A stretch of 13,315 nt of DNA, taken from Planctomycetota bacterium (GTDB lineage: Bacteria > Planctomycetota > SZUA-567 > H5-PLA8). This document shows, piece after piece, positions 1,922 through 12,863 of the stretch (position 1 is the stretch's first letter; each line of letters starts with the position of its first letter). The notes under the pieces were generated by a model, which did not search any database, was not told the origin of the DNA, and saw only the letters and a list, made by a program, of their open reading frames with translations. The stretch spans positions 1 to 13,315 of the forward strand of contig BTVV01000153.1 of NCBI GenBank assembly GCA_045863855.1. The letters run 5' to 3'. A program made the position numbers and the translations under genes.

Positions 1922-3364
<1,443 letters not shown>

Positions 3365-3405
3365 AATGGTCGCAACGAAATTAAGTTGAAAGTGCGTGCA
3401 AAATA

Positions 3406-3672
3406 ATGATTCAGGTGCTCAAGGCAATTGCCGTAGGTCTAGCTTATGTGCTGAACGGAATGTTTTTAGTGATGCTACTAGTTTCAGAGGAAGATCGGTC
3501 CGGAGAGTTGTTCTTCATGAATCACGGCCATAAGGTGTATATCCTGGGACTGAGAAGCAATGAGGCACCATATTTCATGGCCCTATCCATTTTTATTTTT
3601 ATGATCCAAATTGCTTTCCTGATTTGGGTTATCTTGCGGGAAAACGGCGGCAGGCTAATTCGAGACTACTAA
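3406..3672 (+). CDS. Small hypothetical membrane protein (2 predicted TM helices), low GC
   Basis: 88-aa ORF filling the leuC-leuD gap, with two hydrophobic stretches (IAVGLAYVLNGMFLVMLLV; YFMALSIFIFMIQIAFLIWVIL). Hand count gives ~43% GC for 3361-3690. No obvious SD. Confidence 0.6.
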   Translation: MIQVLKAIAVGLAYVLNGMFLVMLLVSEEDRSGELFFMNHGHKVYILGLRSNEAPYFMALSIFIFMIQIAFLIWVILRENGGRLIRDY

Positions 3673-3698
3673 CCGATCTCTCCAAAAGGAATTTCGCC

Positions 3699-4316
3699 AT
3701 GGCCTTAGCTAGAATCACTTCCGTCACCGGCGCTGCTGTCGTTGTCCCAGGAGACGACATCGATACCGACCGCATCATTCCGGCGCGGTTCATGCGCTGC
3801 GTCACTTTCGACGGGTTGGGGCAATACGCGTTTTACGACGTTCGCTTCGACCCGAACACCGGAAAGCCGCTCAACCACCCCTTGGACCGGCCCGAACACA
3901 AAGGCGCGTCGATTCTGATCAGCGGGAACAACTTCGGCTGCGGGTCGTCGCGCGAGCACGCGCCGCAGGCGCTCCAAAAGTTCGGGATCAAGGCGGTGAT
4001 CGCGGGAAGCTTCGCGGAGATCTTCTTCGGGAACTGCACCACGTTGGGCATTCCCTGCGTCTGCGTCTCGGACGCCGACCGGGCGAAGCTGGCGCAGGCC
4101 GTTTCCGCGAACCCGAAGGGCTCGATCCGCGTTAATCTGGAAGCGTTGCGCGTGGAAGCGGGTGAATGTTCCGTGCCCTGCACCATCAAAGAAGGGGCGC
4201 GAAAGGCTTTAAGAGAGGGGCAGTGGGATGCCATTGGCCTCTTGCTTGACGGCGCAAAGGCGGTCAGCGCCTTGGAGGTGAAGTTGCCCAAAATCAGTCT
4301 GGCCTCATCGTCCTAA
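3699..4316 (+). CDS. leuD: 3-isopropylmalate dehydratase small subunit
   Basis: Motifs DDIDTDRIIPARF, GNNFGCGSSREHAPQAL and VIAGSFAEIFFGNC. ATG at 3699 is preceded by AAAGGA (3685-3690), so the track's upstream start at 3624 is unlikely. Confidence 0.97.
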   Translation: MALARITSVTGAAVVVPGDDIDTDRIIPARFMRCVTFDGLGQYAFYDVRFDPNTGKPLNHPLDRPEHKGASILISGNNFGCGSSREHAPQALQKFGIKAVIAGSFAEIFFGNCTTLGIPCVCVSDADRAKLAQAVSANPKGSIRVNLEALRVEAGECSVPCTIKEGARKALREGQWDAIGLLLDGAKAVSALEVKLPKISLASSS

Positions 4317-9886: not shown

Positions 9887-9928
9887 CCAAAAGCAACGCC
9901 GCGCGGATCCCGAGGAACCGCGCGGCGT
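9887..9928 (-). terminator. Intrinsic terminator of the histone gene (possibly bidirectional)
   Basis: Perfect 11-bp inverted repeat ACGCCGCGCGG (9896-9906) / CCGCGCGGCGT (9918-9928). On the minus strand it is followed by TGCTTTT, 26 nt after the histone stop codon. It lies between convergent genes. Confidence 0.75.
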
Positions 9929-9954: not shown

Positions 9955-10173
9955 CTACAGATCGCCGGGGCGCACCGTCGAGCGTTTGTTGGCCTTCGCG
10001 CGATCGACGGCCTTATCCAAGCAACACGCCACGCACGCACTCACCGCGTCGATCAATTCGCCGCTGCTCTTCAAGCCCTTCGACTTGACGTAGTTCTTCA
10101 CCTTGCTGCCCACGACGAGGCCTTCCGTCGAAGCCTTGCCTTTGCCGGCTGCCTTTTTGCCCTTCTTCGCCAT
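9955..10173 (-). CDS. Bacterial histone-fold protein (72 aa) with Lys-rich N-terminal tail
   Basis: Sequence: MAKKGKKAAGKGKASTEGLVVGSKVKNYVKSKGLKSSGELIDAVSACVACCLDKAVDRAKANKRSTVRPGDL. It shows helix 1 'LVVGSKVKNYVK', loop 'KSS', a long helix 2, the L2 motif R64-S-T66-V-R-P-G-D71 (RxTxxxxD) and a truncated helix 3. This matches the pattern I recall for Bdellovibrio Bd0055-like and face-to-face prokaryotic histones. ATG at 10173 has AAGGAGG 7 nt upstream; 14 K + 3 R versus 6 D/E. Confidence 0.9.
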   Translation of the reverse strand: MAKKGKKAAGKGKASTEGLVVGSKVKNYVKSKGLKSSGELIDAVSACVACCLDKAVDRAKANKRSTVRPGDL

Positions 10174-10180
10174 CGTACGT

Positions 10181-10187
10181 CCTCCTT
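10181..10187 (-). promoter_or_regulatory. Consensus Shine-Dalgarno of the histone gene
   Basis: Plus-strand CCTCCTT = AAGGAGG on the minus strand, 7 nt before ATG 10173. Confidence 0.85.
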
Positions 10188-10259: not shown

Positions 10260-10287
10260 AATGTAGGTTTTTTCCTGCATCCGTCAA
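10260..10287 (-). promoter_or_regulatory. Candidate sigma70 promoter of the histone gene
   Basis: Minus strand TTGACG (10287-10282) - 16 nt containing an A6 tract - TACATT (10265-10260). The -35 overlaps the stop codon of the upstream gene. Confidence 0.55.
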
Positions 10288-12038
10288 GGCTGCGGGTTCC
10301 GAATTATGCGGATTTCGCCGCTAATACGGCCCGATTCCGAACTTTCCTCGACCGGTACGAGATGCAACGAAACGGAACCCCAAAGGCTCGCGGCTCTCCG
10401 GACCAGTTCCACGGCCGCCCCTTCGTCGGGGTAGCGTTCCAGAAACTCCGCCGGGCCGATCTCGTCGCGCAGTTCTTCCAGCCAAAGCTGTGCAAAAACA
10501 GCCGCCATGGGCGCCATTCGCTGGCCGTCTGTTCGAAATTCGAAGTAGGGCGCATCGGGCGTCGAATCGTTCGGCGCCCATGCGGCGGGCATCGGTAGCA
10601 TTGCGAAAGGCCCCGCGTCGCTGATCCAGCCCAAGGCCTGGGGCGCAGCGACCCAGGTCATGCGCGTGTAGTTACCCTTCACGAGTACGTAACGCTCCGC
10701 TTCGCCGTGCCGCAAGCGCAACACATAAGGCCGGTCGGCCTCCTCGGGAGCCGTTCCGTCGAACAAGCCGCGCCAGCGGACCCGTGAAAGCTCGCCCAGA
10801 GCCATGCGTGCTTCCGGCGTGGCCGTGAATGGAATGGAGGCCAGTGCGCGCGGTTGCACCACGGCCGCACCGGGCGGCGGTTCAACGATCCGCACCCGCA
10901 AGGTTTTGCCGAAGGAAGGCCAAAGCTGTTCGTTCAAGTCGATACCGGCCTCCGACAGATAGACCAAGCGTGCTTCCCAGCGGCGCCGGTCCTTGTCGTT
11001 TCGATAGGCCTCGAAGAGATTGCGGCGAAAAAGCTTCCCCACGTCCAAAGGAATACGGGCCTCCAGCAGGGGTGGTGTGTCAGGCGGCAATCCATCGCTC
11101 AAGAACGGCGCCCCTGCGCCGCGAGCGGGTAGCGCGCCCAGCCAAAAGCCTTCGGCCCGCAGCGTATCGCCTGACTCGTCGGAATCGACGCGCAGGCGAA
11201 GCTGGATCAGGTCAGGCAGCCGTTCCAGCCCGAAGATTTCCGGCCAGCTAGGGGGTCCCAGCAGGGCATGCGCTAAATTCAGCTCGCCTTCCAATGCCAC
11301 CGCGCGCGGCCGAACTTGCACCTCGGCCACCGCAGCGGGCTCTAACGGAGCCGCCCGAGTAGACACGGTTTCTCCCGGTCCGGGGCGCGCACCATGAAAT
11401 CCCGCGGCCAGGAGCCCGCCGCCCAAGTCGTAGAAATGCGGTTCATGGGGTTGGGGATTGCCTAACCGCATGAGCAAGTAAGCGCCCAAGCGGGTCAGCG
11501 CACCGCGTCCGCCTTGCACGCGAACGAGAAAGAGCACAGGCGCCTTACCTCGCTCGCCGCTGGTATCGCGCGGGGGCGCGGAGACGCATGCCACGATCTC
11601 GGAGCCGGTGAGGAACCGCAGACCGCGCCGAGTCGGCGAGATGAAGTCCCGCAACAGCGCCGGTTTCTTGGCCCAGCGCGCGCGCAGGTCGTCGAGTTTT
11701 TCCTGCCAGCCCGTGAGACGCTGCAATTCCGGGTCGTGCCAAACTCCGCGCAGGCCGGGATGCGCTTCCATGGCGCGCCAAATCGCATCGCCGTTGCGCA
11801 AACGCACCAGAGCCAGCGCATCCGAAGGCACGTAGGCGTCCACCGGTCCGCCGGCCGTGGGCGCAAATCCCGCCACGAAAACGCATGCCGCGGCGCTCGA
11901 AAGCAGCCAAACTACCGCCGACGCTGGTTTGAGCTTTCGCCAAAAGGAAATGCGCGGAGTGGCAACCGGTTCCACGCCGGCCGCAGCCGGTGCGGGCGTA
12001 CTTTCGGGCAGAGGGGCGTGCGCCTCGGCGTCGGCCAC
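10284..12038 (-). CDS. Membrane-anchored hypothetical protein (584 aa)
   Basis: Long ORF with a GTG start 6 nt after the pcm stop. N-terminal basic patch plus hydrophobic helix (VVWLLSSAAACVFVAGFA) followed by 'VDAYVPSDALALVRL', a start resembling DUF3352-like exported proteins (weak). Confidence 0.75.
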   Translation of the reverse strand: MADAEAHAPLPESTPAPAAAGVEPVATPRISFWRKLKPASAVVWLLSSAAACVFVAGFAPTAGGPVDAYVPSDALALVRLRNGDAIWRAMEAHPGLRGVWHDPELQRLTGWQEKLDDLRARWAKKPALLRDFISPTRRGLRFLTGSEIVACVSAPPRDTSGERGKAPVLFLVRVQGGRGALTRLGAYLLMRLGNPQPHEPHFYDLGGGLLAAGFHGARPGPGETVSTRAAPLEPAAVAEVQVRPRAVALEGELNLAHALLGPPSWPEIFGLERLPDLIQLRLRVDSDESGDTLRAEGFWLGALPARGAGAPFLSDGLPPDTPPLLEARIPLDVGKLFRRNLFEAYRNDKDRRRWEARLVYLSEAGIDLNEQLWPSFGKTLRVRIVEPPPGAAVVQPRALASIPFTATPEARMALGELSRVRWRGLFDGTAPEEADRPYVLRLRHGEAERYVLVKGNYTRMTWVAAPQALGWISDAGPFAMLPMPAAWAPNDSTPDAPYFEFRTDGQRMAPMAAVFAQLWLEELRDEIGPAEFLERYPDEGAAVELVRRAASLWGSVSLHLVPVEESSESGRISGEIRIIRNPQP

Positions 12039-12044
12039 GGGGCG

Positions 12045-12695
12045 CTACCCTTGATCCTTATATCCGTCCTGGCCGATCAGCCGGACGAACGAGCACTCCA
12101 CGCCGGTCTGTTCGTGCAGGCTACCATCGGGCTGTTTGGTCGCGGTGATCAGGCGCTGCATGTCGGGTCCGCCCACTGGCGCGACGAGGCGCCCGCCGGG
12201 CGCCAACTGTTCGGCCAAGGCCATCGGCAGTTTGGGGCAGGCGGCCGAGATGACGATTCGGTCGTAGGGAGCGCCTTCGGCCCAACCTACGGAACCGTCG
12301 CCTAACCGGTAGCGTATGTTCGAATACCCCAGGTCCAGGAGCCGGTCTTCGGCGGTGGTGGCGAGGTACTCGATCCGCTCGACCGTCCAGACTTCGCCCG
12401 CCAACTCCGCAAGCAGCGCGGTGAGGTACCCGCTACCGGTCCCAATCTCAAGCAGCTTCTCTTTTCCCTTAAGCTGCAAGGCCTCCAGCATCAAGGCGAT
12501 CATGTACGGTTGGCTGATGGTCTGGCCGTGGCTGAGCTGCAGAGCGCGGTCGACGTAAGCTTGCTCGAAGAGATACGCAGGCACGAAGAGCGCCCGGTCG
12601 ACCTTGAGGAACGCGCGCAGCACCCGTTCGTCGCTAATGCCGCGATCGCGCAGGTCGCCCTCCACCATCCGGCCTCGTTCGTCTTCGTTCGCCAT
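12045..12695 (-). CDS. pcm: Protein-L-isoaspartate(D-aspartate) O-methyltransferase
   Basis: Motifs 'RGISDERVLRAFLKVDRALFVP', 'AYVDRAL..GQTISQPYM', SAM motif I 'LLEIGTGSGYLTALLA', 'GDGSVGWAEGAPYDRIVISAA' and 'QLAPGGRLVAPVG'. ATG at 12695 with GGAG upstream is preferred to the track start at 12809. Confidence 0.96.
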   Translation of the reverse strand: MANEDERGRMVEGDLRDRGISDERVLRAFLKVDRALFVPAYLFEQAYVDRALQLSHGQTISQPYMIALMLEALQLKGKEKLLEIGTGSGYLTALLAELAGEVWTVERIEYLATTAEDRLLDLGYSNIRYRLGDGSVGWAEGAPYDRIVISAACPKLPMALAEQLAPGGRLVAPVGGPDMQRLITATKQPDGSLHEQTGVECSFVRLIGQDGYKDQG

Positions 12696-12863
12696 GGGGG
12701 CTGACTCCGCCGGAGTGCTAAGTCGTGGAGGTACTCCCTGGTGCGCATCGAATAGGGGAGCATCCGCACGAGCGACGGGCAGGCTGAGATCCGCCGGATG
12801 CCGCGGCATTTAGCCGCCGCGGAGCGTCAAATGCCAAGACCTCATTCCAGCGCACCCATCGGC

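What the first reader, a model, noticed from the sequence alone, without database searches (positions are those of the whole stretch)
9955..10173. Bacterial histone gene hidden inside an over-extended ORF call
Seen: the likely real protein starts at ATG 10173 behind a perfect AAGGAGG and is 72 aa with net charge about +11. It has a helix1-L1-helix2-L2-short helix3 pattern: LVVGSKVKNYVK / KSSGELIDAVS...LDKAVDRAKANK / RSTVRPGDL. Established: RxTxxxxD (Arg-Asp clamp and DNA-contacting R/T pair) is the histone-fold L2 signature, and short singlet histones with truncated helix 3 occur in a minority of bacteria (e.g. Bdellovibrio Bd0055, Leptospira). Inference: this organism uses a histone as a nucleoid protein; ending right at 'DL' suggests a face-to-face or dimer type rather than a nucleosomal type.
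Basis: partly seen in the sequence, partly recalled or inferred. Interest (0 to 1): 0.9.

Follow-up and report, generated by a model that had tools for sequence, protein, structure and literature searches.

The report
Cysteine-rich face-to-face bacterial histone
This small gene encodes a bacterial histone-fold protein of the already described "face-to-face" family, common in Planctomycetota, which likely wraps DNA around a four-subunit ring; its one unusual trait is a cluster of three cysteines that might, untested, bind metal or sense oxidation.

Summary
Observation confirmed: a 72-aa, net +11 protein starts at ATG 10173 behind AAGGAGG. "Hidden" is overstated: databases hold the 72-aa form, not the 110-aa one, whose TTG is part of a conserved -35-like box. 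The family is published and common: 197 of 401 sampled genomes of the phylum match, basic tails are described, and this scan noted such histones before on other genomes. Unlike Leptospira, this genome also has HU, and most of its family lacks the histone. One feature I did not find in print: C47, C50, C51 in helix 2. Across relatives, cysteines recur on one polar side of that helix (31 of 396 cells versus 3 of 594 on the other side) and C46/C50 co-occur. A thiol or metal function is possible (about 15%) but untested; no tetramer could be modelled.

The parts
9955..10173 (-). 72-aa alpha3 histone of the face-to-face subfamily (CDS with stop)
10126..10173 (-). Lys/Gly/Ala-rich N-terminal tail, residues 1-16 (6 Lys), predicted disordered
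   Evidence: pLDDT <50 for 1-14; kept in G006 and G007, shorter in G008-G010
9958..10125 (-). Histone fold, residues 17-72, aligning without gaps to HLp 8-63
10021..10035 (-). Cysteine cluster in helix 2: C47, C50, C51
   Evidence: kept in G006 and G007, absent in G008-G010; family statistics
9958..10002 (-). FtF tetramer residues R58 and N62, RxTxxxxD motif (R64, T66, D71) and C-terminal L72
   Evidence: alignment to HLp R49, N53, R55, D62, F63
10181..10187 (-). Shine-Dalgarno AAGGAGG, 7 nt before the ATG
   Evidence: a purine-rich SD-like run precedes the equivalent start in G006-G010
10260..10287 (-). Sigma-70-like promoter candidate TTGACG-N16-TACATT; the -35 box overlaps the upstream gene's TGA stop and supplies the TTG of the 110-aa ORF call
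   Evidence: 1 found, 0.2 expected; same boxes and spacing in 4 of 6 histone-bearing loci, 0 of 10 loci without the histone
9889..9928 (-). GC-rich hairpin followed by UGCUUUU, terminator-like
   Evidence: -40.1 kcal/mol for the 75 nt, z -2.95, 4 of 200 shuffles as good; not called by the strict scan; kept in G006, not evident in G007-G010
10284..12038 (-). Upstream 584-aa protein without a family match; marks the locus within the family, no shown functional link

Best explanation
The gene encodes a 72-residue alpha3 histone of the face-to-face subfamily that likely forms handshake dimers, likely closes two dimers into a ring-shaped tetramer, and likely wraps about 60 bp of DNA without sequence preference, as its Leptospira homologue HLp does. 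Shown here: the ORF, start, fold match and the residues for tetramer formation and DNA contact. Inferred: R58 salt-bridges the opposite dimer's C-terminal carboxylate at L72 and N62 bonds to R64 across the interface; S23/K24/K26/K30, G38, K63, T66 and R68 contact the backbone; the basic tail adds linker-DNA affinity. The gene likely has its own promoter and terminator. Because HU is present and most of the family lacks the histone, it is likely an accessory compactor beside HU, not the sole organiser. The three cysteines are most likely tolerated small residues at the helix crossing and ring interior, with no role of their own.
For: Best PDB match by sequence and fold is HLp: E 7.4e-12, profile E 3.5e-24 against 9e-13 for HBb and 1.4e-11 for HTkC, rmsd 1.2-1.3 A and 45-46% identity. 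Of 11 HLp residues named as DNA contacts in PMC12701072, 8 are identical, 2 are T-to-S, 1 is A-to-G. The three tetramer residues that paper calls conserved (R49, N53, R55) are identical; HBb has S and D at the first two (alignment), and bacterial dimers are defined by lacking them. In HTkC the equivalent arginine is needed for the tetramer and binds the C-terminal carboxyl. The protein is far better conserved than its neighbour (100/88/62-66% versus 93/51/36-38% in G006-G010), the upstream in-frame extension is not conserved, and contigs from RNA libraries of 3 studies cover the gene in near relatives.
Against: No oligomer model and no binding data for this protein. The other 3 of 6 HLp interface residues differ (S52 to A61, T61 to G70, F63 to L72). 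VIA Z for HLp (7.0), HTkC (6.5) and HBb (6.3) are tied, so the monomer fold does not separate FtF from dimer type; the monomer model is modest (pLDDT 74.7, pTM 0.50). The RNA-library contigs cannot show transcription level or strand and may include DNA. The non-random placing and co-occurrence of cysteines is not explained by plain tolerance.
Confidence: 0.8

Rival explanations
1. It is an FtF histone whose helix-2 cysteines are functional: they bind a metal ion (Zn, Cu or Fe) or form a reversible disulfide at the dimer two-fold or in the ring interior, so DNA compaction responds to redox or metal state.
For: Cys at positions 46/47/50/54, which are 54-74% polar or charged in other members: 50 of 632 cells versus 4 of 2212 at other polar positions; in a genome-drawn set found with a Cys-free profile, 31 of 396 versus 3 of 594 on the opposite side of the helix. 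C46 and C50 co-occur (10 of 14 versus 11 of 144; 5 of 7 versus 10 of 92) but not with buried-position Cys (p 0.22-0.56). The pairs are scattered over the tree (13 rows, 12 changes, shuffled mean 12.6). These positions lie on the same side of the helix as R58. All three Cys are kept in G007 at 88% identity. In a crude helix-pair geometry C51-C51' C-beta atoms are within 5.5 A in 60% of 405 settings.
Against: The stripe positions were chosen after seeing the data; the two sets overlap in part; the tree has only 9 well-supported branches of 155 and only 3 independent pairs, too few to test co-evolution. About half of the members have no helix-2 Cys (83 of 158; 49 of 99), including the histones of G008-G010 in the same family. 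The family core is Cys-rich in general (2.2% versus 1.0% in the genome's long ORFs). This protein has C47, not the commoner C46. In the crude geometry C47 and C50 are too far from the partner chain for a four-cysteine site within one dimer (0-4% within 5.5 A). The tail-Cys link seen in the first set was weak in the second (p 0.039 with C46; p 0.31 with the stripe).
Confidence: 0.15
2. It is a bacterial dimer histone like HBb/Bd0055 that bends DNA as a dimer.
For: Matches HBb at E 7-9e-06 and rmsd 1.3-1.5 A; RxTxxxxD is shared; dimer histones occur in Planctomycetota.
Against: R58 and N62 are present and HBb lacks both; the profile scores HLp 36 bits above HBb; no gap is needed against HLp, one is needed against HBb.
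Confidence: 0.04
3. The real product is the 110-aa form starting at TTG 10287, translationally coupled to the upstream gene.
For: The frame is open and TTG overlaps the upstream TGA.
Against: No SD before the TTG; the extension differs in length and sequence among relatives; TTG is part of a conserved -35-like box; the exact 110-aa sequence is not in the protein collection.
Confidence: 0.01

Closest known systems
HLp, FtF histone of Leptospira perolatii (PDB 9QT0-9QT2; PMC12701072)
   Same: 45-46% identity, gap-free fold match, R49/N53/R55/D62 equivalents, 8 of 11 named DNA contacts identical, same C-terminal end.
   Different: Longer and more basic tail; three helix-2 cysteines where HLp has K38, A41, L42; host encodes HU (Leptospira is reported to lack it); no smc-linked neighbourhood seen; patchy within its family.
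HTkC, archaeal FtF histone of Thermococcus kodakarensis (PDB 9F2C; bioRxiv 10.64898/2025.12.06.692711)
   Same: Same fold (rmsd 1.4-1.5 A, 38%); the arginine needed for the tetramer is kept (R58); coexists with other chromatin proteins.
   Different: Archaeal, tail-less, two-residue longer L1, no helix-2 Cys in the aligned part.
HBb/Bd0055, bacterial dimer histone of Bdellovibrio bacteriovorus (PDB 8CMP, 8FVX, 9EZZ)
   Same: alpha3 histone fold, VVxSKVK start, RxTxxxxD.
   Different: Lacks R58 and N62, stays a dimer and bends DNA.
Histone H3-H4 tetramer copper site, H3 C110/H113 (bioRxiv 10.1101/350652)
   Same: Precedent for a histone cysteine at a symmetric interface that binds and reduces metal.
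   Different: C110 lies at the H3-H3' four-helix bundle with a histidine; here the cysteines are mid-helix 2, the protein has no histidine, and no activity was tested.

Membership tests
alpha3 histones | Histone fold (helix-loop-helix-loop-helix) | tested here: met
   no Pfam model fires
alpha3 histones | alpha3 cut to 3-4 residues and alpha2 shorter than in nucleosomal histones | tested here: met
   DSSP H40-61 plus a 3-residue terminal turn; gap-free to HLp, gapped to HPhA and core histones
alpha3 histones | RxTxxxxD motif | tested here: met
   R64, T66, D71
Face-to-face (FtF) histones | Conserved Arg and Asn of the dimer-dimer interface (HMM 48 and 52; HLp R49, N53) | tested here: met
   R58, N62
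Face-to-face (FtF) histones | C-terminus ends right after the RD-clamp Asp so that its carboxylate can reach the Arg | tested here: met
   D71-L72-stop equals HLp D62-F63
Face-to-face (FtF) histones | Conserved alpha1 lysines | tested here: met
   K24, K26, K30 equal HLp K15, K17, K21
Face-to-face (FtF) histones | Predicted or solved toroidal homotetramer (the formal definition in PMC11390915) | not testable with these tools
Face-to-face (FtF) histones | Sequence-independent DNA wrapping of about 60 bp | not testable with these tools
   needs EMSA, MNase, TPM
Bacterial dimer histones (HBb type) | Lack of the interface Arg and Asn | tested here: not met
   both present
Archaeal nucleosomal histones | About 10-residue alpha3 and full-length alpha2 | tested here: not met
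   protein ends one residue after D71
DUF1931 pseudodimeric histones | Two histone folds in one chain; PF09123 | tested here: not met
   single fold of 72 aa; no PF09123 match in the genome
ZZ / Rab GTPase / phage alpha3 histones | Extra fused domain | tested here: not met
   only a 16-residue low-confidence tail precedes the fold

The most novel reading that the evidence does not exclude
A recurrent cysteine-bearing variant of bacterial FtF histones: cysteines on the inward side of helix 2 (positions 46/47/50/54, plus 51 at the two-fold) bind metal or form a redox-sensitive cross-link in the tetramer ring, making a prokaryotic histone a redox- or metal-responsive chromatin protein that arose several times in Planctomycetota. 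This protein, with three such cysteines per chain (twelve per ring), would be a good test case.
Probability: 0.15. Interest if true: 0.7.

Novelty: new member of a known kind. Interest (0 to 1): 0.3.

Why it matters
As an FtF histone it is one more uncharacterised member of a published family, useful mainly because Pfam and NCBIfam miss it and because it sits beside HU in a family where close genera have or lack it, a natural comparison for what a histone adds to an HU nucleoid. If the cysteine stripe is functional it would give the first regulatory chemistry in a bacterial histone and a prokaryotic parallel to the H3 C110 metal site; that is cheap to test on recombinant protein.

Tried and rejected
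Pfam and NCBIfam: no match for the 72-aa or (Pfam) the 110-aa form at E<=0.1; PF00808 and PF09123 find nothing in the genome. A second histone in the genome: none beyond a chance hit at E 0.99. Tetramer prediction: tool not available, no verdict. Functional link to neighbours: the 584-aa gene and the pcm gene occur in 3 of 80 related loci (L003-L005, the three closest), the esterase-like gene in 2 of 80; the commonest neighbour cluster is in 13 of 80 loci and is not in this window, so synteny is lineage-level only. Phylogenetically independent test of Cys co-occurrence: 3 supported pairs, cannot reach significance. R58/N62 in 158 of 158 and 99 of 99 relatives is partly forced by the search pattern and profiles and was not used as evidence. 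Search for this protein in published supplements by a six-residue motif: no occurrence in the files searched, but those tables may list accessions without sequences and 4 files were not searched, so this does not show it is uncatalogued. ESM Atlas: nearest clusters are unnamed Planctomycetota/Myxococcota proteins, with PF00808 only on more distant ones.

Full report
AAGGAGG lies 7 nt before the ATG. The frame is open to TTG 10287, giving a 110-aa call. That longer form is not real: it has no SD, the extension differs in length and sequence in G007-G010, and the exact 110-aa sequence is absent from the 15-billion-protein collection while the 72-aa one is present. The TTG belongs to TTGACG-N16-TACATT (1 site, 0.2 expected), which overlaps the upstream stop. 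The same two boxes at the same spacing occur in 4 of 6 histone-bearing loci and 0 of 10 loci that have the upstream gene but no histone. A GC-rich hairpin with a short U run follows the stop (z -2.95; not called by the strict scan). The gene therefore likely has its own promoter and terminator (inference).

Identity. Pfam and NCBIfam give nothing. Against PDB sequences the four matches under E 0.001 are all alpha3 histones: HLp 7.4e-12, HBb 7.4e-06 and 8.9e-06, HTkC 3.4e-04; with a 26-sequence profile 3.5e-24, 9e-13, 2e-12, 1.4e-11. The AlphaFold monomer (pLDDT 74.7; helices 23-31 and 40-61; residues 1-14 under 50) matches HLp best in Foldseek (rmsd 1.2 A, 46%) and VIA-align (Z 7.0, rmsd 1.3 A, 17-72 on 8-63; HTkC 6.5 and HBb 6.3 are tied with it).

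Subfamily. Schwab et al. (PMC11390915; I read section 7 and search passages) define FtF histones by a ring tetramer held by an Arg and an Asn, and say bacterial dimer histones lack both. Hu et al. (PMC12701072; parts 1-3 of 9 and the Discussion) name R49, N53, R55 as conserved tetramer residues of HLp. With an offset of 9 these are R58, N62, R64 here; HBb has S and D at the first two. In HTkC the same arginine binds the opposite C-terminal carboxyl and its loss gives a dimer (bioRxiv 10.64898/2025.12.06.692711; passages), which explains the end at D71-L72. Of 11 HLp DNA contacts 8 are identical, 2 are T-to-S and 1 A-to-G; the other three interface residues differ.

Host and spread. The nearest named records are Planctomycetota MAGs (L003 100%, L004 88%; P0002). 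A Cys-free profile matches 197 of 401 genomes drawn from the phylum; the first profile matches 15 of 62 in the class and 6 of 20 in the order, in 3 of 12 genera. All six carry it directly behind the 584-aa gene; ten other genomes have that gene without it, eight of them with over 1.3 kb assembled downstream. HU-family matches are in 20 of 20 order genomes, including one strong and two weaker ones in G000. The order and class tallies include G019, flagged unpublished, as one histone miss and one HU match. No second histone was found in G000, which is 94% complete. So unlike Leptospira, reported to lack HU and to need its histone, this lineage has both and close genera do without the histone: an accessory role is likely (inference). 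The histone is more conserved than its neighbour (100, 88, 62-66% versus 93, 51, 36-38%). Contigs of 4 RNA runs from 3 studies cover the gene in near relatives (4-14 differences); this fits transcription but shows neither level nor strand.

Tail. Residues 1-16 hold 6 lysines. Basic tails are described as common in bacterial FtF histones, and 85 of 158 and 55 of 99 relatives have one by my thresholds. Not new.

Cysteines. C47, C50 and C51 replace HLp K38, A41 and L42; HTkC and HBb have none at these places. They are kept in G006 and G007 and absent in G008-G010. Set 1: 275 collected sequences, 212 singlets with a terminal motif, 162 under 85% identity, 158 in register. Cys fills 50 of 632 cells at positions 46/47/50/54 against 4 of 2212 at other polar positions; C46 and C50 co-occur (10 of 14 versus 11 of 144, p 1e-07) and do not follow Cys at buried positions (p 0.56). 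This set was gathered with Cys-bearing queries, so I repeated it. Set 2: 130 of about 218 matches of the Cys-free profile (30 given as loci, 100 fetched from the top 150 listed), 6 dropped for indels or motif changes, 99 non-redundant: 31 of 396 versus 3 of 594 on the opposite polar side; C46 with C50 5 of 7 versus 10 of 92 (p 7e-04); 4 of 99 have three helix-2 Cys; 49 of 99 have none. The sets overlap in part and the positions were chosen after the fact. Tail cysteines went with C46 in set 1 (9 of 14, three of the 14 being over-long N-termini) but only weakly in set 2 (p 0.039; p 0.31 for the stripe). On a 47-column tree without the trait columns the 13 double-Cys rows need 12 changes, no fewer than shuffled labels (mean 12.6), which suggests repeated origin, but only 9 of 155 branches are well supported and 3 independent pairs cannot test co-evolution. 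A helical wheel puts the stripe on the same side as R58, the side that would face the other dimer; a crude helix-pair geometry, with the two-fold assumed at residues 49.5-51.5 from HLp's loop pairing, puts C51-C51' within 5.5 A in 60% of 405 settings, but C47 and C50 in 0-4%. The family core is also Cys-rich overall (2.2% versus 1.0% in G000 long ORFs). The pattern is real; its meaning is open. Tolerated small residues in a half-buried ring interior explain much of it; a metal or redox role has a precedent in H3 C110 (bioRxiv 10.1101/350652; passages), at a different site. I give that about 15%.

Literature on the cysteines. 'Cysteine' does not occur in the main text of PMC11390915, PMC12701072 or the HTkC preprint, nor in the supplements searched for the first two (one scanned file not read; bioRxiv supplements are closed). 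Searches for bacterial histone + cysteine + metal (11 listed), FtF histone (6 listed), copper reductase + archaeal histone and prokaryotic histones + disulfide/redox (top 20 of a very broad list) listed no paper on it; I saw only listings for those. PMC10627809 (passages; supplements in part) notes persistence of histones in Planctomycetota. Subscription journals are not covered.

Earlier scan notes. No look-alike by sequence; by words, eight notes on other genomes reach the same family verdict. I saw them after stating my reading; none of the lines shown mentions cysteines.

Verdict. A correct catch of a real, unannotated bacterial histone, a new member of the published FtF family. Interest 0.3, raised slightly by the untested cysteine stripe and by its coexistence with HU.

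Noticed in passing
P0037-P0049 and about 30 more rows; P0186, P0253, P0256: Many 114-270 aa proteins match the FtF profile twice, i.e. tandem double-fold forms built from FtF-like units. PMC12701072 describes DUF1931 doublets as lacking DNA-binding residues; whether these are a separate class was not checked.
   Followed up: no
L035, L046, L057, L059, P0004, P0010, P0022, P0053, P0092: Several relatives carry Cys, CxC or CC in the N-terminal arm together with C46 and often C50, which could make an arm-to-helix metal site. Strong in set 1, weak in set 2.
   Followed up: partly
L013, L016, L024, L026, L028, L037, L047, P0015-P0018: One Planctomycetota clade has an acidic, Ala/Pro-rich tail (starting MFE[DE]) in place of the basic tail.
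   Followed up: no
L011, L014, L019, L078: These archaeal records hold two FtF histone paralogues within the same 10-kb locus, one with RxxAN[K]R and one with RxxAN[G]R.
   Followed up: no
window 10284-12038 (-): 584-aa protein with an N-terminal hydrophobic segment and no Pfam or NCBIfam match; found in 16 of 17 genomes of the family and 0 of 3 others in the order: a family-specific orphan.
   Followed up: partly
window 12045-12809 (-): Protein-L-isoaspartate O-methyltransferase (pcm) two genes upstream on the same strand; near the histone in only 3 of 80 loci, so no link shown.
   Followed up: partly
window 3406-3672 (+): An 88-aa hydrophobic ORF lies between leuC and leuD; contigs of runs X2 and X5 join 3364 to 3714 with 69 other letters, so a close relative lacks this insert.
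   Followed up: no
L020, L023, L027, L033, L040, L041, L043, L044, L058, L064, L065, L070, L071: In 12-13 of 80 loci (mostly Phycisphaerae/Pirellulales titles) the histone gene is followed by the same cluster of three large genes that look like glycosyltransferase/glycoside hydrolase genes by eye; not scanned against a family library.
   Followed up: no
G015: 20 HU-family matches, many partial, against 1-8 in other genomes of the order.
   Followed up: no
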